Source: a virus. Taken from it: 64,000 bases of DNA. Below are positions 37,944-64,000 of the stretch, piece after piece; position 1 is the first letter of the stretch, and every line of letters starts with the position of its first letter. The translations under genes and the position numbers were made by a program. Below the pieces are notes generated by a model, which did not search any database, had not been told where the DNA came from, and was given only the letters and a program-made list of their open reading frames with translations. The stretch is from IMG/VR virus record IMGVR_UViG_3300049979_000188; one strand, 5' to 3'.

Positions 37944-38067
37944 CTTACGAAAAACCCTGGCTCAAAAAAAGTCAGGGTTTTTTACGCCTCAGCGTAACCT
38001 TTCCTCCGGGCTGGGCGTAAAAGGACATGTAAGCGGCAACGGAGCGGCTTACCTTACTCCTGCTGCA

Positions 38068-38406
38068 ATGGCTAAAGCTGCACAACCTAAATTTTTCACG
38101 CGTAGGGCGGCTGTCAACCCGGGCTTGCCTACTGCTAAACGCCACGTAGACTACCTGGTTAAAGCCGCCACTCAGGCACGGGCACTGGCCTTACTGGAGC
38201 TGGTTAAAGTCCCTGGGCGCGGGCATAGTCTATATTATACCAACGCCCGTGAGTTTCGACTCTACTGGGTTACGCGCTCGACTGCGGAGGCCGATGCATC
38301 CATGCTTGAGTTGAGCTGTGATGCGCTCGAAGGTATCTGGTGGAAGCCGGATATGGACCCGGACAGTGAGTATGTGTGCCTGTGGTATACTCCCATTACG
38401 GAATAA
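38068..38406 (+). CDS. Cassette hypothetical protein
   Basis: ORF directly after promoter plus hairpin. Confidence 0.75.
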   Translation: MAKAAQPKFFTRRAAVNPGLPTAKRHVDYLVKAATQARALALLELVKVPGRGHSLYYTNAREFRLYWVTRSTAEADASMLELSCDALEGIWWKPDMDPDSEYVCLWYTPITE

Positions 38407-38425
38407 ACATCCTTCGCTTACTCTT

Positions 38426-38944
38426 ATGCAAGACCCGAATTTTCAAACCCACACACTGGCTGATAATAATCAAACCCTGGGCGCGCTGCGTAAGCTGCTC
38501 AATGAGCTAGCTGAGAAAGACCCATCCCTGGATGAGCTTAAGCTATGGCAAGGGACGGACTCGGGTGAGGGCTACCTGCGCCTGTGTACGGTTACGGTGG
38601 CCAACGCCCGCCACGTAGACTACGACGGCGACGATGCCGATGATGAAATGTTCTGCGTAGAGCCCGACGAGGAAGGACACCGGGAGGCTGATATGGGGCC
38701 TGGCTACGTACACCGAGAGCTTGACCGCCAGGGGAACCTTAACGGTTATAAGAACGTGCTGGTGCTCGGCGACCACCGCACCCCGCTTGACATTGCGCAG
38801 GCAATCACCAGCGAGCAGGAACGCCTGGCGAAACAAGCAGCTGAAAAAGAAGCGAAGGCCAAACGTGAGGCGCTTAAAAACGACCCCGAGTACCAACGCC
38901 TGCAAAAAGAGGCCAAGGAAGCACGTAAAAAATATGGTCTGTAA
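38426..38944 (+). CDS. Hypothetical protein with C-terminal coiled coil
   Basis: Start moved to MQDPNF. Confidence 0.7.
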   Translation: MQDPNFQTHTLADNNQTLGALRKLLNELAEKDPSLDELKLWQGTDSGEGYLRLCTVTVANARHVDYDGDDADDEMFCVEPDEEGHREADMGPGYVHRELDRQGNLNGYKNVLVLGDHRTPLDIAQAITSEQERLAKQAAEKEAKAKREALKNDPEYQRLQKEAKEARKKYGL

Positions 38945-39003
38945 GTGTAACCTTTTCCCAGGGACCTGCGTAAAAGAACTCAGAAACCAACCTCCCCTTT
39001 CTC

Positions 39004-39396
39004 ATGGCCAAGCACCTGGAACCCGTCCCCTACGAATCGTTAATCGGCAAACGCGTGCGCGTCTACCGCAACCTGCACAACTACGGCGGGGAGCACAAGG
39101 TCTTGTACTCGGTGCAGCACAAAGGGCTCGTGATTGCCCACGTACCGCAAATTACCCTGGATGAGGTGAGCTTCTCAGTGCAGCCCGCTGGCCAGGCCAA
39201 GGTACGCCAAACCAAACGCAAGCAGGTCCACGCCTTTGTCAACGGAGTCGTGGCGGCACCCGGTCACGCCCTGGTGCGCAAGGTGAGCTACAACCCGTAT
39301 CAGACCGATACCTTCGTGCTGGCCGGGCCGCTGGGCCAGGTGCCCGTGCTCGCGGCCGGGCGCATCAACATTACCCAGGTCGGGCTTTTTATTTAA
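39004..39396 (+). CDS. Conserved phage hypothetical protein
   Basis: RVRVYRNLH...F.VQPAGQAKVRQTKRKQVHAFV motif recurrent in phages. Confidence 0.75.
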   Translation: MAKHLEPVPYESLIGKRVRVYRNLHNYGGEHKVLYSVQHKGLVIAHVPQITLDEVSFSVQPAGQAKVRQTKRKQVHAFVNGVVAAPGHALVRKVSYNPYQTDTFVLAGPLGQVPVLAAGRINITQVGLFI

Positions 39397-39487
39397 AAAA
39401 AGATTGCCCCGGCGTGTAACCTTACCGCCGGGGCCTGCGTAAAAGAACCATCAACGGCAACGGAGCCGGGTCTCAGCTACTTTCTTC

Positions 39488-40387
39488 ATGTCTACTACCA
39501 CGCAGCTTAAGCAGCTACAAGCTGAAATTGCGCTCTTACAAAATGTGCGTAACTCGACTGAATACGTAGCATTAGAAGCAGAAATCCAGCAGCTACAAGG
39601 CCGCCTAAGGCAGGCAAAGCAGAATTACCAGGCAAGCGTAGCCGATGAAATTGCGGCCAAGGAATCGGACATTAAGGCCCTTAAGATGCAGCAGCTTCGG
39701 GAAACCAATCCGGCTTTCCAATACTCCATACCGCTATTAAGTTGGTTTAACCGGTGGGGACGTGGCATAGATTGGGGTCAGGGTGGGGTTCGCCTGCGCT
39801 GGGTATCCCCGAATCAAAACTGGGTGATTATCACCGCAGGTGGCGGTACGGCTGGACAAGGCACCCCAATGGGTACGGGTGCCTACTACTATGCGGCGGC
39901 GACGCACTATCTTTACCGGGTAGTAGATGGAGCTACGCACATGAACTCCACGTCCAAATATCAGTTTTCCTTTGAGGGGCGGTTACTCAAGGCTACGAAA
40001 GAGGAATGGATAGCCTTTGCCCTCATCCAGGACGAGGGTTGCCCCTTCACGGAGAACCTGGACCGTTCAACACATGGCGGCTACCGGGTTGGAGACTACG
40101 TCTTTAACGAGATGCGTAGAACCTACGGTTTCATTTGGGAGCTGAATAACTACCAACATAAGCCCACGGTTAGCTTCCGCGATGACCCATATTATAACCG
40201 TCCTATCGGCTACCCACTGGAACGAGTTGAAACGGTCCTACGCCTGGCTAAGCGCGTAGAGGAAATGGACTATCAAGGGATGTTTGACCTCGTCTCACCC
40301 GATGACAACCCGGCTAACCAGGCGCTGCGAGAAGTCCCCCCGACCTCTCCCCTACCCGACAAGAGCCTGGAAGGGTTTTTACTATAA
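39488..40387 (+). CDS. Cassette hypothetical protein
   Basis: 299 aa, N-terminal coiled coil. Confidence 0.75.
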   Translation: MSTTTQLKQLQAEIALLQNVRNSTEYVALEAEIQQLQGRLRQAKQNYQASVADEIAAKESDIKALKMQQLRETNPAFQYSIPLLSWFNRWGRGIDWGQGGVRLRWVSPNQNWVIITAGGGTAGQGTPMGTGAYYYAAATHYLYRVVDGATHMNSTSKYQFSFEGRLLKATKEEWIAFALIQDEGCPFTENLDRSTHGGYRVGDYVFNEMRRTYGFIWELNNYQHKPTVSFRDDPYYNRPIGYPLERVETVLRLAKRVEEMDYQGMFDLVSPDDNPANQALREVPPTSPLPDKSLEGFLL

Positions 40388-40485
40388 GGAGCAAAAGAAT
40401 TTTTATTTTTACGTAACCTTTCCCGCCAGCCCGGCGTAAAAGGACCAGCAACGGCAACGGAGCCGGGGCTTAACCAACCAGTATC

Positions 40486-41274: not shown

Positions 41275-41400
41275 GCTACTAAAAAACCCTGACCCTAAAA
41301 AAGTCAGGGTTTTTTTCTATGAAGATGTAACCTTTCCCAGGGCTCTGCGTAAAAGGACATGTAAGCAGCAACGGAGCTGCTCACGCTAAAGACCCTTACC

Positions 41401-43441: not shown

Positions 43442-44266
43442 ATGTACACCATCCAGCAACTCACCCTCGACCAGCAAAGCCAGGCCGGTGGGCGTCAAGT
43501 ACGCGTCACCTTTGCCAACGGCCAGACCTATACCGTAGCCGATGCGGGCGGGGACTACTGCTTCCAGAACCTAGCGTACTCGCTCACGGCCGAGACGCTC
43601 AACGAGAACACGGCCTTGCGCGAGGCCCTTACGGCCGTGGGTGAGTTTTACCGCTTCTGGCTCAGCGGCAACGAGGACCCGATGGTGCTCATGCTGCGCA
43701 AGGATACCCCGGTGCTGCACGAGCTCTACGAAAGCGAGGAAACGAATAACACGCCGGAGCAAGCGGCGGACCCTGCGCCTGGCAAAGACTATCCGTACGC
43801 CCTGGCTTGTTCTATCTTCACCACGCATAAAGACCCTGATTTGGTGGAGCGGGCACTCATTTACGAAGATGATGCGGTAGCCTTATTACGCGCAATCCGC
43901 CAGGCCGGGCTCTCGGATGCGCTTCCCGTCATCCTTGGCACGGGGGCTGAGTCGATTGAGCTAAGCATGAATGAGAAAGGGTTCTACTTCCTGACCCAAG
44001 TAGATACTACGCCTGATTCGGAGGACAAGCTTTACGCCGATGTACGGCGCTTTTGGCTGCGCCGCAAGACCGAGCCCGTGCAAGACGTGATAACGCTGGA
44101 AATTGGCGAATTTGCCGCCCTGGTGAACCGCATTAGCAAACTACGTGGCACACGCTCGTATCACCCCGGTGAAGATATTGAGCTTCCCATTGCGGGCGTC
44201 TTCCTAGTCAAGCGCGAGCACGCGGTAAACACCAAGCCCAAGCTCTACCGCACCGGCTTGATTTAA
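43442..44266 (+). CDS. Cassette hypothetical protein
   Basis: 274 aa. Confidence 0.75.
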   Translation: MYTIQQLTLDQQSQAGGRQVRVTFANGQTYTVADAGGDYCFQNLAYSLTAETLNENTALREALTAVGEFYRFWLSGNEDPMVLMLRKDTPVLHELYESEETNNTPEQAADPAPGKDYPYALACSIFTTHKDPDLVERALIYEDDAVALLRAIRQAGLSDALPVILGTGAESIELSMNEKGFYFLTQVDTTPDSEDKLYADVRRFWLRRKTEPVQDVITLEIGEFAALVNRISKLRGTRSYHPGEDIELPIAGVFLVKREHAVNTKPKLYRTGLI

Positions 44267-44390
44267 GTAGTGAAACCCTGACTCCTAAAAAAAGTCAGGG
44301 TTTTTTTCTGTAAAGTTGTAACCTTCTCCCCGAGCCTGTCGTAAAAGGACATGTAAAGCGCAACGGAGCACTTTACTAACCCTAAGCGGT

Positions 44391-44900
44391 ATGTTTAACG
44401 TTAGAACCACCACCCTGGCCAAGCGCACCCGTAATGTACTGGCCCACCTGCCGGGCTACCAGCGCCGCCAGCGCTTCGACATTACGCTGGACCTGCACCA
44501 AATCGGTGAGCAGTCCCCCTACTTCTCGGCCACGGTGAGCGGCCGCTCCTTCGGGGGCTGCAACCACGAGCTCATCCTCCGGCACTGGCCCCAGGCTAAA
44601 TGCATCGTGGACCTGCACTTGTGCGACATGGACGGGGCACCCATGCACACGGAGGCCAACGCCCTCTACCACGCCCAGGCCTACCTCCACCAGCAAAAGG
44701 CCCATTACCCAGCCGCCAAGGGGCTCGACTACCTGGCTTCGCACCTACGCATCAGCCAGGACCAGGCCCTGGACCTACTGGCTGACCTGGTAGACAAAAC
44801 CCCCGACGTGCAGGCCCTGCTCATGAAGGCCTTTTGCGACCAGCAGCGCCCCCGCTGGCAGCAGGAGGCTGACCAGGCCCTGGCCTTCCTCAACGCCTAA
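44391..44900 (+). CDS. Conserved phage hypothetical protein
   Basis: PYFSAT...GGCNHE.I..HWP....VDLHLCD.DGAPMH..ANALYH. Confidence 0.75.
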   Translation: MFNVRTTTLAKRTRNVLAHLPGYQRRQRFDITLDLHQIGEQSPYFSATVSGRSFGGCNHELILRHWPQAKCIVDLHLCDMDGAPMHTEANALYHAQAYLHQQKAHYPAAKGLDYLASHLRISQDQALDLLADLVDKTPDVQALLMKAFCDQQRPRWQQEADQALAFLNA

Positions 44901-45001
44901 ATCAAGTGCCCAGGCGTAAAAAACCTGGGCTTTTTTTCCCAAAAACCCTAACCTTTTCGCCGAGACGGGCGTAAAAGGACTCAGAAACCAACCACACCCC
45001 C

Positions 45002-45415
45002 ATGTCAACGCTCACTTCCCTGGCCCCGGCGGCGGCCCTGCCGCAACCGCCGCTTACCGACCACGCCTTTGCCACGCCCCACGGGCAGCTGCTGCGCGCG
45101 CTGCGTCCCTTTCTGCGCCGCACGAGTCTGCCCTTGCTCGGGGCGGCCCAGCACCTGGCCCGGCCCTTAACTGCCCAGGTGCTCATGCCCGGCCAGGTGG
45201 GCATTTCGCTCGACGGTCGGCGCGTAAGCTTGCCCATTGGCACCCAGCTGCTGGCCACCAGCATCGCCCCCACGACGGGCTACACCCGCGTCGTAGCCAC
45301 GGAGCCAGCTAGCACCCGGCCCCTGTTTGTGAGCGCCGACGTGTTGCAAGCCTCGTACGACGAGGAAGGGGCCAGCCTGCTGGAACAAGTACTCACCCGT
45401 TTACCCATCTGCTAG
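45002..45415 (+). CDS. Cassette hypothetical protein
   Basis: 137 aa. Confidence 0.7.
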   Translation: MSTLTSLAPAAALPQPPLTDHAFATPHGQLLRALRPFLRRTSLPLLGAAQHLARPLTAQVLMPGQVGISLDGRRVSLPIGTQLLATSIAPTTGYTRVVATEPASTRPLFVSADVLQASYDEEGASLLEQVLTRLPIC

Positions 45416-45418
45416 GTT

Positions 45419-45796
45419 ATGGCTACTACTGCAAGCACGCTCGTCCGCCTGCGTACGCTGGCTGAGCTCGTCGAGGACCAGCTCGCCTTCACCCCCAACA
45501 CCCGGCTCGACTACTACCACCAGGCCCCGCAGCTACGGGTCTACTACGGGGTTACCCCCGTGGTCACGCTGCGCGCCGATGGCCAGCTAACCGTGACCAA
45601 CGGCGGCGACTTTAGTACTGACTGCCGCGACTTCATCAACGAGCTGCTCACCCTGCTGGGGCGGCCCGAGCGTTTCCAGGACGGACGCGAACGCGGCTGG
45701 CCTATCCTCCACGGCCCGCACCAGGGTCCGTGCGCGCTGAGCATCAGCCGCCAGGGGCAGCTGCAAATCAAGCACACCTGGCCGGCCTTAAGTTAA
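45419..45796 (+). CDS. Hypothetical protein
   Basis: 125 aa, second gene of cassette. Confidence 0.7.
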   Translation: MATTASTLVRLRTLAELVEDQLAFTPNTRLDYYHQAPQLRVYYGVTPVVTLRADGQLTVTNGGDFSTDCRDFINELLTLLGRPERFQDGRERGWPILHGPHQGPCALSISRQGQLQIKHTWPALS

Positions 45797-45891
45797 CCCA
45801 AAAAAGTTTGCCTACTACCGTAACCCTTTCTAAGGGCTCGGCGTAAAAGGACCAGTAACGGCAACGGAGCCGCTACTAAAAACCAACCAGT

Positions 45892-46482
45892 ATGAACCAC
45901 GAAGTAAATGAAGCCGCCAAGCGTATCATCGGCAACGAGGTATTTTTGAACCTGACCGGCATGGTCTCGGCCCTGCTCGGGGATGGCCAGGAGCAAATCG
46001 ACGTCTATGAGTTCGCCAACTACCGCCTGGACCCCGACAAGCTCACGCTGAGCAAAATGAAGGAACTGCTCGACGAGCAGGCGGAGAGCGGCTACGCCCG
46101 GGGCTTCGACTTCAACCCCTGGGTCATGAACCAGGACGAGCTGCGCGCCTGGGTCGAGGCGGAGGTGGGTGAAGTAGCGCTTGACGAAACCAAGGAGGCC
46201 CTGCTGGCAGCGGTAGTGGCCGAAATGGACCAGTTTGGTGATAACTACGAAAACGAGCTCCAAGGCTGGAAAAACGCCGTGAGTGAGTTGCCCGATGCCG
46301 AGGTCTATGAGTGGTGGGCCGTCTCGTCGTTCCTGGCCCGTGAGCTCGAAGAGGCAGGCGAAGTAGTCGGCGAGGCCTTCGGGGTCTTCCTCTTCGGCCG
46401 CCAGGGCACAGGCCAGGCCCTGTACCTGGATTCGACCTTCCAGGAGCTCGGCAAGGCCCGCGTAGGTGCCCAAAACGCATAA
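45892..46482 (+). CDS. Conserved phage hypothetical protein
   Basis: EVYEWWAVS.FLARELE..GE....FGRQGTGQALYLD. Confidence 0.75.
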   Translation: MNHEVNEAAKRIIGNEVFLNLTGMVSALLGDGQEQIDVYEFANYRLDPDKLTLSKMKELLDEQAESGYARGFDFNPWVMNQDELRAWVEAEVGEVALDETKEALLAAVVAEMDQFGDNYENELQGWKNAVSELPDAEVYEWWAVSSFLARELEEAGEVVGEAFGVFLFGRQGTGQALYLDSTFQELGKARVGAQNA

Positions 46483-46681
46483 TTCACCCGCTTTTCCCTT
46501 TACTACATGAAGTTCGCCCGAATCCGCGCTACCCGCACTACCAAGATTAAACGCTAAGCATTCCAGACCCTGACTCGTAAAAAAGTCAGGGTTTTTTTTG
46601 TGTTTGAACGTAACCTTTTTACGATACCTGCGTAAAAGGACGTGTGCTGCGCAACGGAGCCCAGCCAGTAACTTACGCGCC

Positions 46682-47158: not shown

Positions 47159-47249
47159 TTTTTTTTCGTAAGAACGTAACCTTTTCCCCAAGTCCGGCGT
47201 AAAAAGACGCATACCAGGCAACGGAGCCTGATTACTAACTTCACCTAAC

Positions 47250-49899: not shown

Positions 49900-49941
49900 C
49901 AACTTGCCCGGGGCAACGGAGCCCCGGGCTACTATTTTTCC

Positions 49942-54196: not shown

Positions 54197-54314
54197 GCAA
54201 ATCCCCGGCCCTAAAAAAGCCGGGGATTTTTTCATGACTACCGTAACCTTTGCCCCGGGCTCTGCGTAAAAGGAGTATTCCTGGTAACGGAGCCAGGGGT
54301 TTACCGTAGCTGAG

Positions 54315-54869: not shown

Positions 54870-54917
54870 AAGGACCTGTAAGCCGCAACGGAGCCGCTTA
54901 CCTTACTAATTCTTACC

Positions 54918-55487
54918 ATGAAAAAATTCACCGTGATGGGCCTCATGCTCAATGAGAACGGTCCCTGGACGGGGCACATTGAAGCCCCCGATGAGGAAGC
55001 AGCCATCAACCAGGCCCAGCGTACCGTGTACGCCAATCACTACCTGCTGGAGCAGCCCGAGCTCTATCCGGTCCTGCCCGCGCACATCGTTCCCAAAGTG
55101 CTCGAAGTACTGATGGTATTCGACGGGTTCGTATACGGCATAATGGCTGATGAGCTGGGTATCGAACGGGTCGAGCCTACCGAGCCGGCTGACTACCTGC
55201 TAACCTATCCCCATGCCACGGCCGGGGAGCTCGCCGAGTTTATCAAGCAGTGGTTCAACCAGCTGAAGAGCCCTGAGCAAGTGGTATTGGCGGAACCCAT
55301 CGAGCTAAACCTGGGCGTATTCGGTGGGAGCCAGCCCGTGCGCATTATTGCCCTCACGCCCACCGGGGCCGAGGTGAGCGGGGCCGTGGAGCAGCTGGAT
55401 TTGCAGCGCCTGGCCAATGTGCCGACCACCTACTATTTTAACCTCAATACGGCTGCGCTGCGTCGTATTGTACAGGCCCTGGCCTAA
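54918..55487 (+). CDS. Cassette hypothetical protein
   Basis: 189 aa. Confidence 0.75.
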   Translation: MKKFTVMGLMLNENGPWTGHIEAPDEEAAINQAQRTVYANHYLLEQPELYPVLPAHIVPKVLEVLMVFDGFVYGIMADELGIERVEPTEPADYLLTYPHATAGELAEFIKQWFNQLKSPEQVVLAEPIELNLGVFGGSQPVRIIALTPTGAEVSGAVEQLDLQRLANVPTTYYFNLNTAALRRIVQALA

Positions 55488-55608
55488 ACCCAAAAAACCC
55501 CAGCTAAAAAAGTTGGGGTTTTTTTGCGTCTCAGCGTAACCTTTGCTCAGGGCTCCCCGTATAAACCTCAGAACGCAGGCAACGGAGCCTGGGTTAACCC
55601 CTACTACC

Positions 55609-55938
55609 ATGAACCTCACTTCGTCACCTGCGCCGCACGAGACTTTTCCTTACCTGCGTGCCTTCATGGAAGGTCGCCAGCTTGACTCCTACTCGCTGCC
55701 CTTCTTTCTGCAAGTAGTAACTGACACGGGCCGCGTGGTACCCGTCTGCGCTATTAGCTACAAGGCGTTGCCGGGTACCAGCACCAAGTACTTGCGCCTG
55801 GTCGTACCGGGGGAGGATGGGAGCCAGGTGGAGCTTAGTGCGGCTGAAATCAGCACCAAACAGTTCAAGATAGTAGCCGATGCCTTGGCCACGATGCTGG
55901 CTACTTCGCCCAGGATAACCAGTACCTCGGCAAAGTAA
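55609..55938 (+). CDS. Cassette hypothetical protein
   Basis: Start moved to MNLTSS. Confidence 0.7.
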   Translation: MNLTSSPAPHETFPYLRAFMEGRQLDSYSLPFFLQVVTDTGRVVPVCAISYKALPGTSTKYLRLVVPGEDGSQVELSAAEISTKQFKIVADALATMLATSPRITSTSAK

Positions 55939-56057
55939 CCAGCCTAATCTACTAAAAACCCCAACTTTTTTAGTTGGGGTTTTTTTCACCCTTAACGTAA
56001 CCTTTTCCCAGGGACCTGCGTAAAAGGACTCAGAAACCAACCCCCCCCTTTCTTTTT

Positions 56058-56807
56058 ATGAGCTACATTGCTTGCACCCCCCAGCTACTGCCAGCCCTGG
56101 CCCCCACCTCGATTGGCCTGCTCGTCGGCGACAGCGCCGTACATAGCATTGAGGCCGAGGCCCTCGGTACGACGGGCTGCATTTACCAGCACGTATACCT
56201 GCTGAGTGAGCGCCCCATCAACTCGGGCAATGTGTACTTCGACAAGGCCAAGCAGCAGGTGCTCGTGGCCCCTGAGATGGGCGCGGGCTACTTCAACCGC
56301 TACCCCGGTGACTACATCCGCGTGGAGGCCAGCACCGACCCCTCCCTGGGCCTGCCCGTGGTAAATGATACGGTCCTGGCCGCCTACGTAAAGGGCGCAA
56401 AATCAAGTCAAACGCAATTTCGCGTTTACCCTGGCACCCTGCCGGGTAGCGTGCCCGTGGTGGGCGTACGGATGCGCGAGTACACGGGCACGCTCTACAA
56501 CACGGACCAGGAGCCCCGCGCCCTTACCCTGGCCGAGCTCATCGAGGTAGGCGTGGGCCAGGTTGGGTCCACTATGGCGGCTTCTGCGTTCGGCTCGGGC
56601 TACCTGCTCAACGACGGCAAGAAAAGCGCGCACCACTTCTACTCCGCGCCCGACTGGGCCATCTACGGCACCAATGAATGGGTACCCAATGAGGCGGGCC
56701 GCCTGGCGGTAAACGCTGTAATGGGTAAAGAGCACTACAAAGGGGGCGAAGATTACCTGCCCGGCTCGATTATTATTTACAAACGAGAAGATTTTGTGGT
56801 CTTCTAA
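56058..56807 (+). CDS. Cassette hypothetical protein
   Basis: 249 aa. Confidence 0.75.
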   Translation: MSYIACTPQLLPALAPTSIGLLVGDSAVHSIEAEALGTTGCIYQHVYLLSERPINSGNVYFDKAKQQVLVAPEMGAGYFNRYPGDYIRVEASTDPSLGLPVVNDTVLAAYVKGAKSSQTQFRVYPGTLPGSVPVVGVRMREYTGTLYNTDQEPRALTLAELIEVGVGQVGSTMAASAFGSGYLLNDGKKSAHHFYSAPDWAIYGTNEWVPNEAGRLAVNAVMGKEHYKGGEDYLPGSIIIYKREDFVVF

Positions 56808-56878
56808 CGTAACCTTTCTCCCTGCCCTGCGTAAAAGGATTTACAAACGGTAACGGAGCCGTTTGTAAATCCTTTTTT

Positions 56879-57211
56879 ATGAAGACCTACCCTATCGAAG
56901 AAGAAGCACGAGTTGATTTTGAAGTGGCTAATGCACTTGAGTCAGTGGGCTACCCCTACCGCTATGCCAGTGAAGTTCCACTTAATATCCCAACCCTGAA
57001 TGCGGCACAGCGTTGGCTACGTATTGCGCGTGACCAGCACATGGAAGTAGAATACACTGGGGATGGTTTTACCGTATCGGTACTTGGCAGCCAGTTTGGC
57101 CGCCTCTATGAGAATACGCAAAAGCCTAACAATCCAACCCGGTTTGCTACGTACGAGGACGGCCAGCGGGCTGGGGTATTGGAAATGATTAAATTAATTT
57201 CCCCCAAATAA
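56879..57211 (+). CDS. Cassette hypothetical protein
   Basis: 110 aa. Confidence 0.7.
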   Translation: MKTYPIEEEARVDFEVANALESVGYPYRYASEVPLNIPTLNAAQRWLRIARDQHMEVEYTGDGFTVSVLGSQFGRLYENTQKPNNPTRFATYEDGQRAGVLEMIKLISPK

Positions 57212-57287
57212 CGCAACCTTTCTCCCAGGCCCGCGTAAAAGGACATGTAGCCGGTAACGGAGCCGGCTACACAACTTCTCCCCTACC

Positions 57288-57620
57288 ATGCATACGCAAG
57301 ACCAAAAGACGCAAGCCTTAAACGCGGCGGTCAATTCTTTCTCGGCCAAACCGGAGAGCACTGCAACCGAAGCAATGGGCGAGCTTGCCCAGCATACGTT
57401 CGAGGCTGGCTACGCCCTGGGTCGCACGCCCGAGCGCGAGTTCACCGCCGACGAGCTCTATAAGATTCAACAGGTTCTTTTCGACCTGCGGTGGAACTGG
57501 GGCAGCTTCGCCCAAACAATGGGGCAACTGCTGCGAGCCGGTGACAGCAGCACTCGCCAGAAGCTGGCCAAGGGGTTCCCCCACGAGTTCAGCGCCTGGC
57601 TCGAAATGGCCAGACGGTAA
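57288..57620 (+). CDS. Cassette hypothetical protein
   Basis: 110 aa; GSFAQTMG.L...GD....KL.KGFP motif. Confidence 0.7.
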   Translation: MHTQDQKTQALNAAVNSFSAKPESTATEAMGELAQHTFEAGYALGRTPEREFTADELYKIQQVLFDLRWNWGSFAQTMGQLLRAGDSSTRQKLAKGFPHEFSAWLEMARR

Positions 57621-57726
57621 GCAAAAGACCCCGTCGCCTAACGGGGTCTTTTTTTTTTAGCTACTAGTGTAACCTTTCTCCGGGCTCTGCGTAAAAGGAC
57701 TCAGAAACCACCTAACCACTTTCGCC

Positions 57727-58014
57727 ATGAACGAGCACGCAACCCCCGACCTGACTAGTACGCGCATTGGCCAGGAACTACCCCTGCGGCACTTGCAAGG
57801 GGACGAGTACACCTACATCCAGAACGAGCAGGAGCTCGCCGCTACCGTAGCTGACGTGAGCGAAGACGTGCTGGCTAAGCACATCAAGGCCTACGAGAAT
57901 GATACCATCACTGGGGCAATGGTGAAGGTGGGTGAGGGCTGGTACGACCAAATCTGGCTCACCACGGATAGCGCGCCCTATCATTTAGCCTCACTTTATA
58001 CCCGCGCCCTGTAA
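57727..58014 (+). CDS. Cassette hypothetical protein
   Basis: 95 aa; stop within -35 element. Confidence 0.7.
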   Translation: MNEHATPDLTSTRIGQELPLRHLQGDEYTYIQNEQELAATVADVSEDVLAKHIKAYENDTITGAMVKVGEGWYDQIWLTTDSAPYHLASLYTRAL

Positions 58015-58118
58015 CCCACCCGGTTCTTTTTACGTATACAGACCATAACCAACCCGCCCGTGTTTCTTTCGAGAGGCACGGGCCGGCTTGTCAGTACCCA
58101 CTTCATTTTCTTACTGAC

Positions 58119-58415
58119 ATGACCGACCAACTCCAACTCCTGACCCTTGTACCGCGCCAGTTTTACCTGCGCGAAGACACCCGCTACGCCTACGGCAAAG
58201 ACGGGAGCGACCGCGAGCCCCTCACGCCCCAGCAGGCCCAGGAGCGCGTGCAAGAGGCCCTGCTGGCCCAGGACGTGAGCCTGCAAGACGTGGCCCCGTT
58301 CCTGGGTGCGCTGCTGGTGGGCACGCCCGCCGAGCTCCTGCTGGAAGAGTCCTACCCCCGCGCCAGCTGCGACTGCTGCAACGACCATGTAAAAGTTTTT
58401 TTGGTTGTGGTGTAA
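58119..58415 (+). CDS. Hypothetical protein with CDCC motif
   Basis: 98 aa; SCDCCNDH. Confidence 0.65.
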   Translation: MTDQLQLLTLVPRQFYLREDTRYAYGKDGSDREPLTPQQAQERVQEALLAQDVSLQDVAPFLGALLVGTPAELLLEESYPRASCDCCNDHVKVFLVVV

Positions 58416-58485
58416 CCTTCTGCTAAGGTTAACCGTAAAAGACCGTATACCGAGCAACGGAGCTCGGTATACGAGCCTTACTACT

Positions 58486-58776
58486 ATGCAAGCTGAGACT
58501 ATTTTAGTAACCCCCGCACACTGGACGCTGAGTAATCTAAATGGGGTGACAACAATGGCGGATTTTAACCGTCGCCAGAAAAACGATAAATCCCCCCGTA
58601 TTCTTCGGCAAGGGACTAAGCAAGCCCGCACTAGCGGTTACGTTAGCTGGTTACGCAAAGCAACTGAGTCTGGTAAGATTGAGCTCTTACTATGGGTGGG
58701 TGCCACTAAAATGCAAGCAGTCCATAACGCGCGTCTCAGCGGCGAACCCGCCAAACAGGGTTATTCTGTAAAATAA
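58486..58776 (+). CDS. Cassette hypothetical protein
   Basis: Start moved to MQAET. Confidence 0.65.
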   Translation: MQAETILVTPAHWTLSNLNGVTTMADFNRRQKNDKSPRILRQGTKQARTSGYVSWLRKATESGKIELLLWVGATKMQAVHNARLSGEPAKQGYSVK

Positions 58777-58867
58777 AAAGTTTTTTCACTAAACGCAACT
58801 TTCTCCGAGGGCTCTGCGTAAAAGGACACATAAAGGGCAACGGAGCCCCTCGCAAACCTTCCCTACC

Positions 58868-59443
58868 ATGCAAGCTGTTATCACGAACGCGCTGCTTCAG
58901 AACGCCCGTCAACTCAACGGGATGCAGGACGAGCGCACAACTAGCGCCATCATCCCCACCCTCGACGGCACCTACCTCATCGAGGTAGTAGGCTGGGTGA
59001 TGCTGCAAAAAGTTACGGCCGGCCGCTACCGCCTCGTTATTCAGCGCGGCACGGCTTACTTCTACAAGCCGAAAGGAAGCAAGCTCATCGTGGCCCACCA
59101 CGAGAGCGTCGTGCGGATGGCCAACGGCCGGGCTGGCGACCTTAACGGCATCAATTACCTGGGCGTAGGTAACGAGACTACCCAGGCCGCCCTGGATGCC
59201 AGCCAGCCCGAGCTGAGCCTGGGTGCGTGCTACGATATTGCGGTAACTTTTGAGCCCGGTAGCCAGCACCAAAACTACGTTATTCGCCAGCAGATAAGCA
59301 ACGTAGATAACGAGGCGAAGGAATATGAGGTTACGGTTCTTTCGCCCGTTCCTGAACCAGGCAAGGTAGTGACCGTGCGCCGCAGCTTTTACAAGCTCCA
59401 CCGCCAGGTGCGCGAAGATACCCGCCTGACCCTGGTCGGCTAA
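58868..59443 (+). CDS. Cassette hypothetical protein
   Basis: 191 aa. Confidence 0.75.
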   Translation: MQAVITNALLQNARQLNGMQDERTTSAIIPTLDGTYLIEVVGWVMLQKVTAGRYRLVIQRGTAYFYKPKGSKLIVAHHESVVRMANGRAGDLNGINYLGVGNETTQAALDASQPELSLGACYDIAVTFEPGSQHQNYVIRQQISNVDNEAKEYEVTVLSPVPEPGKVVTVRRSFYKLHRQVREDTRLTLVG

Positions 59444-59559
59444 TTAGATGGACCCTGACAGGAGATTGTCAGGGTCCATTTATTTTTTCGTAAACTTGTA
59501 ACCTTTGACTCCTCACCCTCGTAAAAGGAGGCAGAAACCAACTAACCCCTTTTCTTCTC

Positions 59560-60015
59560 ATGGATACCTTACTCGCTGCTGCCCCCACCGCCACTAGTTC
59601 TAACGCCGAGGCTACCTTGCAAGAGGGCCTACGCTGGCTGCGTCACCACAATATTCCTTACTACAACGCCCAGCCAGGGAAGGTAGCGCTGCTGGGGGAT
59701 AACGAGGTAAATGCGCAGCCGCTGGTGGGGCGGTTCGGTCCGTTGCGCTGCCACCAACTCACGGTAGTCGAGGCGGCTACCGGCCTGCCCCTGACTGTTA
59801 CCAGCGGCACCCAGCTGTTGGCGCTGGCCGTGGACCTGACCCGGCCCCAGCCGCGTATCCTGGTGGATGCCTTGACCCCGCAGGGCCGTAAACGCGAGCT
59901 GCTGCTCACGGCTCGCCAGGCCGACCTGGCCCGGGGCGAGGACACCAACCATTCGCTGCTGGCCGACGTGCTGGCCCGGCTGCGTGCCCTGCAAAAAGTT
60001 CGCGTTAGTCGCTAA
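59560..60015 (+). CDS. Cassette hypothetical protein
   Basis: 151 aa. Confidence 0.7.
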   Translation: MDTLLAAAPTATSSNAEATLQEGLRWLRHHNIPYYNAQPGKVALLGDNEVNAQPLVGRFGPLRCHQLTVVEAATGLPLTVTSGTQLLALAVDLTRPQPRILVDALTPQGRKRELLLTARQADLARGEDTNHSLLADVLARLRALQKVRVSR

Positions 60016-60124
60016 CCACGAAAAACCCTAACTAAAAAAAGTTAGGGTTTTTTTGGCTACCTTTGTAACCTTTCTGCGAGCCCTGCGTAAAAGGAGGCAG
60101 AAACCAACCAACCCCGCTAACTTT

Positions 60125-60412
60125 ATGTGCACCGAAACCCTGAACACCCCCAAGTGGATTACCACCGATAGTGACACCCGGCAAAAAGGCCGCCAGCTCG
60201 GGCCTGGGGTGTATGAGTTTAAGGAGCGGCGCAACGGCCAGAAGTTTCGCCGCACGGTGGTGCTGGCCGACTACTCTACCGAGCGCCAGGAATACTATAT
60301 CAGCGCCTACTACGGCTCCCTGGCGAAGTTGCGCGCTGAGTTCCCCGAGCCGGAAGATGCCGACTGGTTGCTGGCTGAATGTATTTTTGAGCAATTGAGC
60401 TATTATTCGTAA
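60125..60412 (+). CDS. Conserved phage hypothetical protein
   Basis: WITTDSDTRQ.GRQL....YEF...YISAYYGSL...LAECIFE; stop within -35 element. Confidence 0.7.
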   Translation: MCTETLNTPKWITTDSDTRQKGRQLGPGVYEFKERRNGQKFRRTVVLADYSTERQEYYISAYYGSLAKLRAEFPEPEDADWLLAECIFEQLSYYS

Positions 60413-60465
60413 CCTTTTCCCAGGGCTCGGCGTAAAAGGAGGCAGAAACCAACCCCTTACTTCCA

Positions 60466-60774
60466 ATGGAAAAGAAACTTGTATCCTGGGCCACATTCAG
60501 TAAGCAGGATGGGAAACACCTCCCGCGCAAACGGCGTGGCGACTGTGCGGGCTTTGGCGGAGTAGACGTGGTAGACCCTACTTTACGGGCGGCTGGTTAT
60601 AGTCGTCGTTCGGAAGATGGTATACTGGGCTTTGATAAACCTAAAACACTCGCAAATCAACTCTTTAAAGAGTTTAGTGATGAGATAAATGGTATAGCTG
60701 TTTATCACGTAGCTCGCCACCGGGCCGATATGGATGGTTTTACGCTCAATCTTTATTTTCTTAAAAATGCTTGA
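60466..60774 (+). CDS. Cassette hypothetical protein
   Basis: 102 aa. Confidence 0.65.
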   Translation: MEKKLVSWATFSKQDGKHLPRKRRGDCAGFGGVDVVDPTLRAAGYSRRSEDGILGFDKPKTLANQLFKEFSDEINGIAVYHVARHRADMDGFTLNLYFLKNA

Positions 60775-61069
60775 CTTCACCCCCAGCACCCTGGCCCGCT
60801 TGCACAAGCAGCGCCCCAGCACCGGCAACACCCTTACTCACTCGGTGCCCCTGGGCCTGGGTAAGGCGCTCGTAAAAGGCGAGAAAAACGGCCTCTGTAA
60901 TCGCAGCGCCTGCTTGAAGCCGGGCGCTACCTTTCGCCACATCGGCAATGGCCTCTACTACTGCCCCGAGTGTGCGGGGCTCATCAATTACCCCGGTGGC
61001 CAGGCCGACGCGCAGCGCCTCTTCGGCCGGCCCCTACTGTGCATGGTAGACCCTGAAGACGCAAAATAA
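60767..61069 (+). CDS. Putative zinc-finger protein
   Basis: CNRSAC...YYCPECAGLIN. Confidence 0.65.
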   Translation: MLDFTPSTLARLHKQRPSTGNTLTHSVPLGLGKALVKGEKNGLCNRSACLKPGATFRHIGNGLYYCPECAGLINYPGGQADAQRLFGRPLLCMVDPEDAK

Positions 61070-61157
61070 TTTTACGTAAAGCTGTAACCTTATCTGAGCG
61101 AGCTGCGTAAAAGGACACATACCGGGCAACGGAGCCCAGTACTACTACTCTCCCCAC

Positions 61158-61583
61158 ATGGTTAAGTTAACTGACACTGTACTTAAAAACCAGGCGGCTT
61201 TCCTGCTCAATACCAGCAGCAAAAACATCTACCTGGCCGCCGTACCCGCCGATGGTGACCCGGGTGCTCTGCACTACCAGGGGCAGGTCTACGAGTTCCA
61301 ACTCGACTACAAGGGCATCGTGCCCGACAGCTTGGTAAACACCGGCCGGGCCACGGTTACGATTGTGGTGAAGCGTGACTGGCTCGACGGTCGGGCCACG
61401 GCACAGGAGCTGTGCATCTTTTACGGCACGGGCACCCCGGCTGACAGCACGCTCTGGCCCGAGCAGTGGAAGCAGGTACGCACCAGCCTCAATTATTGGG
61501 AGTGGGTAGCCAAGGAGTTGCGCCTGCGCCGCGAGTACCGCGAGCGCGTCCTGCTCGACTACCCCGACATGTTTACCAAATAA
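61158..61583 (+). CDS. Cassette hypothetical protein
   Basis: 141 aa. Confidence 0.7.
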   Translation: MVKLTDTVLKNQAAFLLNTSSKNIYLAAVPADGDPGALHYQGQVYEFQLDYKGIVPDSLVNTGRATVTIVVKRDWLDGRATAQELCIFYGTGTPADSTLWPEQWKQVRTSLNYWEWVAKELRLRREYRERVLLDYPDMFTK

Positions 61584-61682
61584 ACGTAAAATAATCGGCA
61601 GCAAGTGTAACCTTGCTGCCGAGTCCTGCGTAAAAGGACCATGAAGCGCAACGGAGCGCTTCACTTTACCCCTCCTACTCTT

Positions 61683-62069
61683 ATGGAATACAATGGCACC
61701 CACTACGGCGCAATGTTCAGCGTCTTTCAGGGCTACGTCGCGCAGCAAGCTGACCAACGCAAAAACATGGAGGATGCCTTGGTCTCCTACTTGAAAAGTG
61801 CTGAGGTGACCCGGTTCCTGGTCAGCGATGGCAACGAGCCCTGCCTGGTGGAAGTTATCCAGAATGCCCACCTCAACCCGCCCGTACTGGAAAAAGACGG
61901 CCAGCTGCACTTTATCAGCACCCAGGGGCTGCACACGGCTCAGGGCCTCAAGCCGTTGCGTTGTTTCACGGATGCCGAACTACTAGCCGTCGGTGCGTAC
62001 GTGCAGCAGTGGTATCGTTACCACTACTTTGGCTACCACCAGCCCAACCCCTTTCCCAGCGCCGAATAA
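61683..62069 (+). CDS. Cassette hypothetical protein
   Basis: Start moved to MEYNG (track start lies inside the leader hairpin). Confidence 0.7.
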   Translation: MEYNGTHYGAMFSVFQGYVAQQADQRKNMEDALVSYLKSAEVTRFLVSDGNEPCLVEVIQNAHLNPPVLEKDGQLHFISTQGLHTAQGLKPLRCFTDAELLAVGAYVQQWYRYHYFGYHQPNPFPSAE

Positions 62070-62166
62070 AAAAACCTCGGGGGAACGTAACACTTCCCCC
62101 GAGCCCTGCGTATACTACCTTACCAACCGGGCACCAATGCCCACTTAACCCCCCACACCCCCTTTT

Positions 62167-62586
62167 ATGGCTGTATCAGATGTAGCCTCCGTTCTCGCCA
62201 CCCTGCAAAGCTTCGGCTTTAGCGGTAAATTCCAGGCCGATGGCACCCTGGGGTTCAACCTGGCCAGCCTGGCCACCGATGAGCTCAGCAAACTGCTGGC
62301 CTTTCGCCGTAGCTACGGCCACCCCATCGCCCTCAAGCGTAGCGGCACCGGCCTGCGGGTGAGCTTCACGCCCGGCGTGGAGCCGGTAAATCAACAGGCG
62401 GTAAACTTGGAGTTCACCAAGATTATCGAGCAGGAAAAACGCCTCAGCCCTACTGGCCAGGGCTACAATGTACACACTCTCAACGACCCCGAGTTTGTGG
62501 CCCTGGTAGACTACCAGAACTACAAGGATAAGCCCGTTACGCTCAAGCGTAGCGGCACCGGCCTGCGGGTTACGGTGGGCAACTAA
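62167..62586 (+). CDS. Protein built of two tandem ~70-aa domains
   Basis: LKRSGTGLRV twice; identical 29-bp DNA at 62332-62360 and 62542-62570. Confidence 0.75.
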   Translation: MAVSDVASVLATLQSFGFSGKFQADGTLGFNLASLATDELSKLLAFRRSYGHPIALKRSGTGLRVSFTPGVEPVNQQAVNLEFTKIIEQEKRLSPTGQGYNVHTLNDPEFVALVDYQNYKDKPVTLKRSGTGLRVTVGN

Positions 62587-62708
62587 GCAAGAAAACCCTG
62601 ACCCTAAAAAGTCAGGGTTTTTTTATAACTCTACGTAACCTTTCCCCCGGGCTCTGCGTAAAAGGACTATAATCGGCAACGGAGCCGACTACTATTTCCC
62701 TCCGCCTC

Positions 62709-63101
62709 ATGGATTTTTCGTATCAGCACCTGGCCAACGCTTACGCCCTGTTCAACAACTACACCCAGCAAGAATACGAGCAGCGCCGCAGCATTGTTGA
62801 TGCCATTGCCGGGGGCGTGCGCACCGAGCGGCTGGCCCCCTACCTGGAAAACGGGTTGCTCTCGGTGAGCCTGCTGCACGAAAAGGCCCGGTTCTTTTTG
62901 ACGGATAAGAAGCTGCTCGATTTTGGCAAGCCAGCCGAGGTGCTGGCCATTGGCGAGGACCGGGTGTATACGCCCATTGGCTACCTGAGTATGGAAAACC
63001 TCAGCAACCAAGATTTGGTGGCCGTGGCCGGGTGGGTACAGAAGATTTACGTGGATATTGAAATTGGCGAACAGGTTGGCCAGCGCACTCGTCCCAGCTA
63101 A
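62709..63101 (+). CDS. Cassette hypothetical protein
   Basis: 130 aa. Confidence 0.7.
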   Translation: MDFSYQHLANAYALFNNYTQQEYEQRRSIVDAIAGGVRTERLAPYLENGLLSVSLLHEKARFFLTDKKLLDFGKPAEVLAIGEDRVYTPIGYLSMENLSNQDLVAVAGWVQKIYVDIEIGEQVGQRTRPS

Positions 63102-63191
63102 TTTATTTTTCGTAAACTTGTAACCTTTACCCGACACCCACGTAAAAGGATACATAACCGGCAACGGAGTCGGTTAGTCAACTTCCCTCCC

Positions 63192-63515
63192 ATGTTAGAG
63201 TTAACCAAGCAAGCCCTGCTGAGTCGCATTTTGGGCAGTCCCCTGCGTCTTCGTAAAGCCACCCGCTTTCGCCGTAACCAGCTCAAGAACCTGGCCCGCC
63301 GCAAGGGCTACCGCCTGCTGCGCGTCTACACCCGGCACATCGGCTGGATTTACCGCATCGAAATCCTGCCCTATCCCGGTAACGGGGAAAAGTTAATCCG
63401 CACCTACGACTACTGCAAAACCCAGGCCGCTACGGCCGCTGAGCGCCTGGCCCTGCACCTGCTGGGAAAACCCGACATTAGCTGGAAACGTAAAAAAAAG
63501 CTAGTTTCGTTGTAA
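63192..63515 (+). CDS. Basic cassette hypothetical protein
   Basis: 107 aa, R/K-rich; stop within -35 element. Confidence 0.7.
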   Translation: MLELTKQALLSRILGSPLRLRKATRFRRNQLKNLARRKGYRLLRVYTRHIGWIYRIEILPYPGNGEKLIRTYDYCKTQAATAAERLALHLLGKPDISWKRKKKLVSL

Positions 63516-63587
63516 CCTTTCACAAACTACTCCCGTATAAAGTATCAGAAAGCCAGGCAACGGAGCCTGGCTTAACTTTCTAGTCCC

Positions 63588-63728
63588 ATGCTAACTGTAA
63601 GCAAAAAAACACGTAAGCGCCTTAACGCACAAGATAAACGCACCCTGGCTATGCTCGAAGCGGTGATAAACCCCAGCCAGGAAGTACTAGAGCACATTGC
63701 GACGCTCAAAAAAGAACAGAAAGACTAA
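63588..63728 (+). CDS. Small hypothetical protein (46 aa)
   Basis: MLTVSKKTRKRLNAQDKRTLAMLEAVINPSQEVLEHIATLKKEQKD directly after cassette; below track cutoff. Confidence 0.6.
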   Translation: MLTVSKKTRKRLNAQDKRTLAMLEAVINPSQEVLEHIATLKKEQKD

Positions 63729-63813
63729 AAGTTGCGTAACCTTTTCCCTACCCCTCACGTACAATAGACATCTCCCCGGCAACGGAGCCGGGGAGCTTTC
63801 CTCCCCATTGGTT

Positions 63814-64000
63814 ATGCAAGATACTACCCGCGCCGATGCTTACCTGGCGAAACTTAATGCCCTGACTCCGGCTGAGCAAGAGGCGTACTACGCCGCGTGT
63901 GACCGGGCCAGGCAGCCCAATAACACGCTCGAAGAGTACGCCACGGCCACCAACGGTACGCGGATGAACCTGGGCTGCGCCGTGCGCATCCTGGAGCGCC
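63814..64000 (+). CDS. Cassette hypothetical protein (runs off window edge)
   Basis: MQDTTRADAYLAKLNALTPAEQEAYYAACD... open to end of window. Confidence 0.65.
   Translation, partial: MQDTTRADAYLAKLNALTPAEQEAYYAACDRARQPNNTLEEYATATNGTRMNLGCAVRILER

What the first reader, a model, noticed from the sequence alone, without database searches (positions are those of the whole stretch)
37944..64000. Modular one-gene cassette array: terminator + promoter + leader + small ORF repeated about 44 times
Seen: over 26 kb nearly every ORF is insulated by a 70-110 bp unit (bidirectional terminator, GTAACCTTT-N-CGTAAAAGGAC, leader) rather than being operonic. The cargo ORFs are unrelated small hypotheticals, several from families recurrent in phages. 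Established: T4-type phages carry PeSL promoter-stem-loop cassettes that mediate modular shuffling of accessory genes. Inference: homologous recombination between cassettes could add, delete or reorder genes, making this an integron-like but recombinase-free platform for host-takeover or anti-defence genes.
Basis: partly seen in the sequence, partly recalled or inferred. Interest (0 to 1): 0.85.

Follow-up and report, generated by a model that had tools for sequence, protein, structure and literature searches.

The report
Phage sigma-factor regulon of single-gene cassettes
An uncultured jumbo phage gives almost every one of about 50 small unknown genes its own copy of one standard promoter, which most likely answers to a sigma factor the phage encodes at the head of the array; this is a new variant of known phage gene-control layouts, and gene shuffling through the repeats is plausible but unproven.

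Summary
The repeat is real. 42 plus-strand copies of GTAACCTT-N13/14-CGTAAAAG(GAC) lie between 36795 and 63765, and no convincing copy lies elsewhere in the window. Each sits at a fixed distance from a start codon. Only 17 of the 42 follow a terminator, so "every ORF insulated" is overstated.

The motif is an ECF-sigma-type promoter (GTAAC, 16-17 nt, CGTA). The first gene of the array (36858-37943, no Pfam hit) is a divergent ECF-like sigma factor (profile-profile probability 96%; fold matches are all sigma factors), and it carries the same promoter. Its eight relatives, from other metagenomes, all lie in contigs with the same promoter in front of the sigma gene and of downstream small genes.

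33 cassettes add a 5' leader hairpin with an invariant AACGGA loop and covarying stem.

The recombination idea is only indirectly supported. A relative's array shares 15 of 34 genes, all plus-strand, with partly kept and partly broken order. Identical patches of 37-44 nt link non-adjacent cassettes. No close genome pair with indels was available.

The scan's first readers noted the same stretch in overlapping windows of this genome. No look-alike stretch on other DNA was on record.

The parts
36716..36728 (+). TTGCCTAGCTTTG box upstream of the sigma gene. It is a candidate host primary-sigma -7 element (TAnnTTTG, Bacteroidota type).
   Evidence: Read. The same box lies upstream of the sigma gene in L100, L101/L102 and L103. 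Assigning it to the host sigma rests on my own knowledge and is an inference.
36795..36823 (+). The sigma gene's own promoter of the array class (GTAACCTTT-N12-CGTTAAAG), followed by the leader CAGAAACCAACCAACC.
   Evidence: The same arrangement stands before the sigma gene in every relative.
36858..37943 (+). Divergent ECF-like sigma factor (P0001, 361 aa). Sigma2-like domain about 110-200, sigma4-like domain about 230-310, and a unique N-terminal extension of about 110 aa.
   Evidence: No Pfam hit. Eight relatives at 32-50% identity. Profile against PDB: the only hit is region 4 of E. coli sigmaE (E 0.25). AF2 model. The Foldseek and VIA-align lists are almost all sigma factors, with Z 7.7-8.7 for sigma4. 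hhalign against 11 Bacteroidota ECF sigmas: probability 96%, E 4.6e-9, 141 columns.
37944..64000 (+). Array of about 49 small plus-strand genes (46-299 aa) carrying 41 promoter cassettes. It runs off the window end.
   Evidence: Promoter starts: 37994, 38947, 39416, 40413, 41327, 41946, 42833, 43369, 44318, 44948, 45820, 46610, 47176, 47661, 48193, 48805, 49550, 50296, 50848, 51183, 51932, 53205, 53704, 54243, 54843, 55536, 55997, 56809, 57213, 57669, 58412, 58795, 59498, 60065, 60409, 61084, 61607, 62635, 63120, 63512, 63736. L005 shows the array continuing at least 1.5 kb further, with three more cassettes.
41281..41316 (+). Example terminator: A-run, stem CCCTGAC, loop CCTAAAAAA, stem GTCAGGG, T-run (symmetrical, so bidirectional in form).
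   Evidence: -17.3 kcal/mol. The 17 junctions with such a terminator precede the promoters at 37994, 41327, 42833, 44318, 44948, 46610, 48805, 49550, 53205, 53704, 54243, 55536, 55997, 57669, 59498, 60065 and 62635. Related stems with compensating changes are listed.
41327..41358 (+). Example promoter: GTAACCTTT, 12-13 nt GC-rich spacer, CGTAAAAGGAC.
   Evidence: Information content per position. A T-tract 10-16 nt upstream of the -35 box is partly conserved (0.9-1.3 bits).
41361..41384 (+). Example leader hairpin: stem of about 9 bp closed by G-C and C-G, hexaloop AACGGA.
   Evidence: 33 copies. Covariation: 85% of cells paired against 60% in shuffles, 74 double-sided changes against 27, 0 of 500 shuffles as high, slid controls 29-42%. 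No Rfam family.
49906..49929 (+). Leader hairpin without a promoter, in the 42-nt gap before gene 49942-50277.
   Evidence: It shows that the hairpin can occur without the promoter.
33660..33685 (+). Second ECF-type promoter class, GTAACGCCGGGCT...CGTA(A/T)ACT, used outside the array.
   Evidence: Five exact matches against 0 expected: 33660, 35112 and 36287 on the plus strand, 9723 and 23232 on the minus strand. Contexts.

Best explanation
The array is the regulon of a phage-encoded ECF-like sigma factor.

Proposed sequence of events:
1. The sigma gene (36858-37943) is first read from upstream, probably from a host-type promoter.
2. The sigma factor then joins the host core RNA polymerase.
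3. It fires its own promoter (positive feedback) and about 40 near-identical promoters in this window, each 24-50 nt upstream of a small accessory gene. The array continues beyond the window end.

About 40% of the units also end the upstream transcript at an intrinsic terminator. Three quarters add a 5'-proximal RNA hairpin with an AACGGA loop, which probably acts after transcription, on mRNA stability, translation or recognition by an unknown factor.

Because each gene brings its own expression signals, genes can be gained, lost or moved one at a time. Recombination between the direct repeats is a likely route for this, but it would be a side effect rather than the purpose of the repeat.

Shown here: the motif, its positions, the sigma fold and homology, and co-occurrence of gene and motif across phages.
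Inferred: that this sigma reads these promoters, the transcription start, the timing, the hairpin's role and the recombination.
For: - The motif has ECF architecture: GTAAC, 16-17 nt, CGTA. It is plus-strand only and at a fixed distance from start codons.
- P0001 is homologous to ECF sigma factors (hhalign probability 96%; fold lists; PDB profile hit on sigmaE region 4).
- The sigma gene carries the same promoter, as ECF sigma genes usually do.
- All eight relatives of the sigma lie in contigs where the same motif precedes the sigma gene and downstream small genes. The contigs span 54-70% GC: L098-L108 and L124, where 30 of 34 junctions carry it.
- Strict motif scans of IMG/VR found nothing.
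- In relatives some genes start directly at ...CGTAnAAGGACC-ATG, which fits a transcription start 5-7 nt after the -10 box.
- E. coli-type sigma70 promoters are not above chance in the array: 8 against 7.4.
- Hairpin covariation.
Against: - No transcript data exist, and neither phage nor host is cultured.
- The sigma matches no Pfam model, and every single structural hit is weak (E above 0.01, Z up to 8.8).
- The same motif lies 35-41 nt upstream of the host rpoD gene in five Flavobacteriales genomes. A host ECF sigma with this specificity therefore exists and could read the array instead.
- No anti-sigma partner was identified.
- A second ECF-type promoter class in the window has no assigned reader.
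Confidence: 0.68

Rival explanations
1. A host ECF sigma factor, not the phage protein, reads the cassettes. The phage would copy a host stress-response promoter so that the array fires when infection triggers that response. P0001 would then have another role, for example competing with or modulating the host factor.
For: The exact bipartite motif, with varying spacers, lies 35-41 nt upstream of rpoD in five Flavobacteriales genomes. It also stands before two paralogous small genes in a Bacteroidales genome. All three strict-motif hits among the species genomes are Bacteroidota.
Against: - The sigma-like gene always accompanies the cassettes and carries the promoter itself.
- The exact motif is rare in Bacteroidota at large: 1 new hit in 400 sampled genomes, no more than the reversed control.
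- The phage is 56% GC, unlike the 31-34% GC Flavobacteriales that carry the rpoD motif.
Confidence: 0.15
2. The repeats are kept mainly as recombination sites: a PeSL-like or integron-like platform whose conserved sequence serves exchange, excision and insertion of gene cassettes.
For: - Identical patches of 37-44 nt join non-adjacent cassettes whose flanks are unrelated.
- Identical 7-nt hairpin arms recur in 12 pairs against 1.9 expected.
- Each phage has its own version of the -10 extension, leader and terminator stem.
- The array of L124 shares 15 of 34 genes with this array, all in plus orientation, with about 7 order breaks.
- In T4-type phages PeSLs do recombine (PMC2839356, PMC4122927).
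Against: - Conservation follows promoter logic: two boxes, a variable spacer, and a fixed distance and orientation to the ATG. It holds across phages whose sigma proteins are only 32-50% identical.
- Most cassette pairs share exact runs of under 20 nt, which is little homology.
- Cassette details are often inherited together with the gene, for example 62167 and 59560 against their L124 orthologs.
- Gene order is still significantly colinear (Kendall tau 0.52, p 0.006).
- Near-identical genome pairs show no indels.
- Non-array genes have moved as well.
Confidence: 0.12
3. The motif is bound by something other than a sigma-polymerase holoenzyme, for example a phage single-subunit RNA polymerase or a repressor or operator protein.
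For: The spacer is partly conserved (CCCAGGGCTCTG-like), so the whole site of about 32 nt could be one contiguous recognition sequence.
Against: - Spacer length varies between 13 and 14 nt and spacer sequence varies freely between phages, while the two boxes stay fixed.
- No RNA polymerase gene was seen among the window's proteins.
- The boxes match the ECF rule, and an ECF-like sigma gene sits beside them.
Confidence: 0.05

Closest known systems
PeSL (promoter-early stem-loop) cassettes of T4-type phages (Arbiol et al. 2010, PMC2839356; Comeau et al. 2014, PMC4122927)
   Same: Short composite regulatory units (a promoter with an AT/T-rich upstream stretch, plus a stem-loop terminator) repeated between orphan genes in a variable genome region. 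No dedicated recombinase. A gene with its signals behaves as a module.
   Different: - PeSL promoters are host sigma70-type early promoters. Here the promoter is ECF-type and tied to a phage sigma factor.
- Only 17 of 42 units have a terminator.
- There is an extra RNA leader hairpin.
- The array is denser: about 50 genes in 26 kb in one direction.
- The host is probably a Bacteroidota, not a gamma-proteobacterium.
- Recombination and mini-circles were shown for PeSLs and are untested here.
Phage-encoded sigma factors with their own promoter class, e.g. phiEco32 gp36 and phage 7-11 (PMC8948821, PMC12276001)
   Same: A phage sigma-family protein redirects host core polymerase to a phage-specific promoter consensus that precedes a temporal class of genes.
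   Different: - The phiEco32 and 7-11 papers were found in a literature search but not read here, so no side-by-side comparison of promoter numbers or unit structure was made.
- Here about 40 promoters lie in one window, most before a single gene.
- The promoter follows the classical ECF rule (AAC / CGT), and the sigma gene autoregulates.
- The sequence family is new: no Pfam hit and only eight relatives among 1.84 billion representatives.
Bacterial ECF sigma regulons (sigmaE, sigmaW, SigL, SigH type)
   Same: Two-domain sigma (sigma2 and sigma4), -35 AAC and -10 CGT boxes 16-17 nt apart, and the sigma gene preceded by its own promoter.
   Different: - No anti-sigma partner was seen.
- The protein has an N-terminal extension of about 110 aa and a C-terminal tail.
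- The regulon is a contiguous array of unknown phage genes rather than dispersed stress genes.
Integron gene-cassette arrays
   Same: A one-directional array of small, unrelated, mostly unknown genes separated by a repeated element.
   Different: No integrase, attI or attC was found. Integron cassettes are mostly promoter-less and read from one common promoter, whereas here each gene has its own.

Membership tests
PeSL cassettes (T4-type phages) | Composite intergenic unit of a promoter plus an adjacent stem-loop terminator | tested here: inconclusive
   42 promoters, but only 17 have a strong hairpin plus T-run. The others have a T-rich stretch only.
PeSL cassettes (T4-type phages) | The promoter is a strong host sigma70-like early promoter | tested here: not met
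   The motif is GTAAC-N16/17-CGTA. Sigma70-type sites are at chance level, 8 against 7.4.
PeSL cassettes (T4-type phages) | Associated with orphan genes in a hyperplastic region | tested here: met
   One of 49 cargo genes has a Pfam family and at most 8 have PHROG families, all of unknown function. More than half of the array genes differ between this phage and L124.
PeSL cassettes (T4-type phages) | Indels or replacements between close relatives with crossovers inside the cassettes; mini-circles | not testable with these tools
   No relative closer than 50% sigma identity was found. The near-identical pairs L101/L102 and L108/L109 have no indels. Circles need reads or PCR.
ECF sigma factor and its promoter | Two-domain sigma2-sigma4 protein homologous to ECF sigmas | tested here: met
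   hhalign probability 96%, E 4.6e-9 over 141 columns. Fold matches are sigma factors. Pfam models do not fire, so the protein is very divergent.
ECF sigma factor and its promoter | -35 box with AAC and -10 box with CGT, 16-17 nt apart | tested here: met
   42 sites. Both boxes reach 1.8-2.0 bits per position. That this rule defines ECF promoters is from my own knowledge.
ECF sigma factor and its promoter | The sigma gene is preceded by its own promoter (autoregulation) | tested here: met
   Window 36795-36823, and every relative.
ECF sigma factor and its promoter | Co-encoded anti-sigma factor | not tested
   The next gene (38068-38406) lies behind a terminator and has no family hit. No specific test was made.
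ECF sigma factor and its promoter | Sigma-dependent transcription starting just downstream of the -10 box | not testable with these tools
   Only indirect support: leaderless-looking starts directly after the -10 box in relatives.
Integron | Tyrosine-recombinase integrase with attI and attC sites | tested here: not met
   No integrase or recombinase family among 119 window proteins scanned against Pfam. The repeat has promoter architecture, not attC architecture.
Known RNA families (for the leader hairpin) | Match to an Rfam model at gathering score | tested here: not met
   0 matches in 33000-64000.

The most novel reading that the evidence does not exclude
The cassette may be a self-contained, phage-private expression standard made of three parts: an orthogonal promoter read by the phage's own ECF-like sigma, an optional insulator terminator, and an mRNA 5' tag (the AACGGA hairpin) read by an unknown phage or host factor. 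Under this reading, a whole clade of Bacteroidota jumbo phages shares the standard, and accessory genes move between positions and genomes by homologous exchange within the cassettes. That would make it a PeSL-like shuffling system built on a non-host promoter.
Probability: 0.3. Interest if true: 0.8.

Novelty: new variant of a known kind. Interest (0 to 1): 0.62.

Why it matters
- It would give a clear, testable example of how a large phage of a poorly studied host group (probably Bacteroidota, which lack Shine-Dalgarno-led translation) organises dozens of accessory genes: one private sigma factor, one standard promoter per gene.
- The sigma-promoter pair is compact and sharply defined, so it could serve as an orthogonal expression switch for Bacteroidota.
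- The array marks about 50 unknown genes as one co-regulated class, a natural shortlist for host-takeover and counter-defence screens in laboratory strains.
- If cassette-mediated exchange is shown, PeSL-type modular shuffling would extend beyond T4-like phages and beyond host-type promoters.

Tried and rejected
- Megablast of 24 kb of the array against 50,697 phage records: no match.
- Strict promoter pattern and promoter-plus-loop pattern in IMG/VR: none, or only single chance hits.
- Strict pattern in JGI metagenomes: four single hits, none with a second relaxed-motif copy. One of them (L003) later proved identical to the rpoD-upstream site of a Flavobacteriales genome.
- Word-based protein search for the sigma: only itself. 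The exhaustive HMMER search was needed to find relatives.
- Pfam on the sigma at E up to 10: nothing relevant.
- No whole genome is held for the window, and the record behind L108 is not held. The array was extended instead through the look-up of encoding contigs.
- Tandem duplication of cargo genes as the origin of the array: rejected, since only one weak pair exists among 49 proteins.
- Idea that the motif is a widespread Bacteroidota promoter: rejected at exact-match level. There was 1 new hit in 400 genomes and 4 new hits in 151 Flavobacteriales, against 5 for the reversed control. Three of those four do lie before rpoD.
- A start-stop mini-ORF (ATGTAA) at the 5' end of leaders: present in only about 5 of 33, so not pursued.
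- Leader hairpin plus the complement of the -10 box scores as a terminator on the antisense strand. I treat this as a side effect of the A-rich -10 box.


Full report
**1. Observation**

GTAACCTTT occurs 57 times against 16 expected, and CGTAAAAGGAC 58 times against 17. Joined as GTAACCTT-N13/14-CGTAAAAG, they give 42 plus-strand sites between 36795 and 63765. There is no convincing site at 1-36000 or on the minus strand.

- 42 of 50 gene junctions carry a site.
- The ATG follows the -10 box at 40-50 nt when the leader holds a hairpin (most at 42-46 nt), and at 24-34 nt when it reads (T/G)CAGAAACCAACC.
- The median gap between array genes is 95 nt. It is 12 nt in the neighbouring minus-strand block, which is operonic and serves as an internal control.
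- The 49 cargo proteins (46-361 aa, sigma included) are unrelated to each other and almost all unknown: one Pfam family (Phage_L5_gp82) and eight PHROGs without function.

Only 17 junctions have a strong hairpin with a T-run. These have an A-run in front, so they are bidirectional in form. The other junctions keep only a T-rich stretch 10-16 nt upstream of the -35 box.

**2. What the promoter is**

GTAAC, then 16-17 nt, then CGTA is the ECF-sigma rule. That this rule defines ECF promoters is my own knowledge.

E. coli-type sigma70 sites are at chance level in the array.

The first gene of the array, 36858-37943 (P0001), has no Pfam hit even at E 10. It has no close relative either. The evidence that it is a sigma factor is:
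- An exhaustive HMMER search found eight relatives at 32-50% identity (alignment A3).
- The A3 profile hits only E. coli sigmaE region 4 in the PDB (E 0.25).
- An AF2 model has two confident helical domains.
- The Foldseek and VIA-align lists for that model are almost entirely sigma factors. The sigma4 matches reach Z 7.7-8.7 at 2-3.6 A rmsd.
- A profile-profile comparison with 11 ECF sigmas taken from two Bacteroidota genomes gives probability 96%, E 4.6e-9, over 141 columns spanning both domains.
- The language-model atlas placed it next to viral Sigma70_r2 and Sigma70_ECF clusters. I treat that as a lead only.

The gene carries the array promoter itself (36795-36823).

**3. Relatives**

The contigs that encode the eight relatives come from ENA, JGI and Logan assemblies and span 54-70% GC. 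They are L098-L111 and L124.

- Each contig has the same bipartite motif before the sigma gene, always followed by an AGAAACCAACC-type leader. Wherever the contig extends past the sigma gene, the motif also precedes the small genes downstream of it.
- In L124, 30 of 34 junctions after the sigma gene carry the motif.
- Each phage has its own version of the -10 extension: CGTAAAAGGAC here, CGTATAAAGACC in L108, CGTACAAGGA in L101/L102. Leader and terminator stem also differ by phage.
- Some genes in relatives start directly after the -10 box. This fits a transcription start 5-7 nt downstream.

This co-occurrence is the main argument that the sigma reads the cassettes. It remains an inference.

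**4. Host and a rival reader**

- Shine-Dalgarno motifs are nearly absent from the whole window: 6 of 64 and 1 of 49 genes.
- A conserved TTGCCTAGCTTTG box upstream of the sigma gene resembles the Bacteroidota primary-sigma -7 element (the assignment is from my own knowledge).
- A scan of species genomes with the strict motif gave three hits, all Bacteroidota.
- In five Flavobacteriales genomes the motif lies 35-41 nt upstream of rpoD, with differing spacers.

So a host ECF-type sigma with this specificity exists. The phage sigma may derive from it or mimic it, or the host factor may read the array (rival 1). The exact motif is otherwise rare in Bacteroidota.

**5. Leader hairpin**

- 33 leaders carry a stem of about 9 bp with an invariant AACGGA loop.
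- Covariation is strong: 85% of cells are paired against 60% in shuffles, with 74 double-sided changes against 27. No shuffle of 500 reaches this, and slid controls give 29-42%.
- No Rfam family matches.
- One copy occurs without a promoter (49906-49929).
- In L124 most orthologous genes have the non-hairpin leader instead.

The hairpin is therefore a separable, lineage-enriched module. Its role is unknown; mRNA stability, translation and factor binding are all possible.

**6. The recombination hypothesis**

In favour:
- Exact patches of 37-44 nt, including the otherwise variable stem, link non-adjacent cassettes whose flanks are unrelated.
- Identical stem arms occur in 12 pairs against 1.9 expected.
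- Terminators form a family with compensating stem changes around a shared CCTAAAAAA loop.
- L124's array shares 15 of 34 genes with this array, and none of the L124 array genes hits the non-array part of the window. All are in plus orientation, with colinear runs broken about seven times and more than half of the genes private to each phage.

Against, or limiting:
- These phages are distant.
- Non-array genes have also moved.
- Gene order is still significantly colinear (tau 0.52, p 0.006).
- Some cassette details travel with their gene.
- Most cassette pairs share under 20 nt of exact identity.
- The only near-identical genome pairs show no indels.

The pattern is compatible with PeSL-like shuffling (PMC2839356, PMC4122927) but does not demonstrate it.

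**7. Verdict**

This is a real and striking architecture. It is best read as a phage ECF-like sigma regulon built from single-gene cassettes. That makes it a new variant of known kinds: phage sigma regulons and PeSL-type cassettes.

First readers in this scan had noted the ECF-like sigma, the leader hairpins and a 37-kb extent for the same stretch, in overlapping windows of this genome. I formed the ECF reading before I looked those notes up. I tested the sigma note and the two hairpin notes here, and the 37-kb extent only in part.

Noticed in passing
window 33660-33685, 35112-35137, 36287-36312 (+); 9698-9723, 23207-23232 (-): A second ECF-type promoter class, GTAACGCCGGGCT...CGTA(A/T)ACT, stands at operon heads outside the array on both strands (5 exact matches against 0 expected). 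Looser copies precede the genes ending at 10796, 12057 and 33461. Its reader is unknown. It may point to a sigma cascade.
   Followed up: partly
L113, L114, L119, L120, L122 (Flavobacteriales genomes G001, G002, G130, G051, G090): The phage promoter motif GTAACCTTT-N12-CGTAAAAG lies 35-41 nt upstream of the host primary sigma gene rpoD, with varying spacers. This looks like a conserved ECF-type promoter of rpoD in these bacteria.
   Followed up: partly
L115 and L118 (Bacteroidales genome G003): The same motif precedes two paralogous small genes (149 and 159 aa) of unknown function.
   Followed up: no
window 32992-36137; also L100, L101, L108: (A/C)ACATTGT words cluster in the intergenic regions around the divergent early block. 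There are 6 in the window, all within 3.2 kb, against 2.4 expected. Relatives have long tandem runs of the same word. They may be operator sites.
   Followed up: partly
window minus-strand genes ending at 9667, 19334, 23177: The GAAACCAA(C/T)C leader word of the non-hairpin cassettes also occurs before some genes outside the array, and before nearly all array genes in the relative L108. It may be a translation signal in a host without Shine-Dalgarno pairing.
   Followed up: no
window 52538-52593 and L124 9286-9480: Orthologous genes (52594 here, 9481 in L124) both lack the promoter. Both are preceded by a different hairpin that contains a shared CCTATTTAGG word.
   Followed up: no
window 10841-11791 (-): A LAGLIDADG endonuclease gene lies beside a DUF932 gene. 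An HNH_3 family hit also occurs somewhere outside the array; its gene was not located.
   Followed up: no
L124 14494-15141 (-): A DUF559 (Vsr-like endonuclease) gene lies on the opposite strand inside the relative's array.
   Followed up: no
L005 (Logan contig), both ends: The short-read contig is identical to window 61636-64000, and both of its ends fall inside cassettes. The sigma contigs L098, L100 and L105 also end in a cassette. The repeats break assemblies, so array lengths in public contigs are underestimates.
   Followed up: partly
window 44001-64000, minus strand: The leader hairpin followed by the complement of the -10 box (GTCCTTTTACG) scores as an intrinsic terminator for antisense transcription at more than 15 cassettes.
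   Followed up: no
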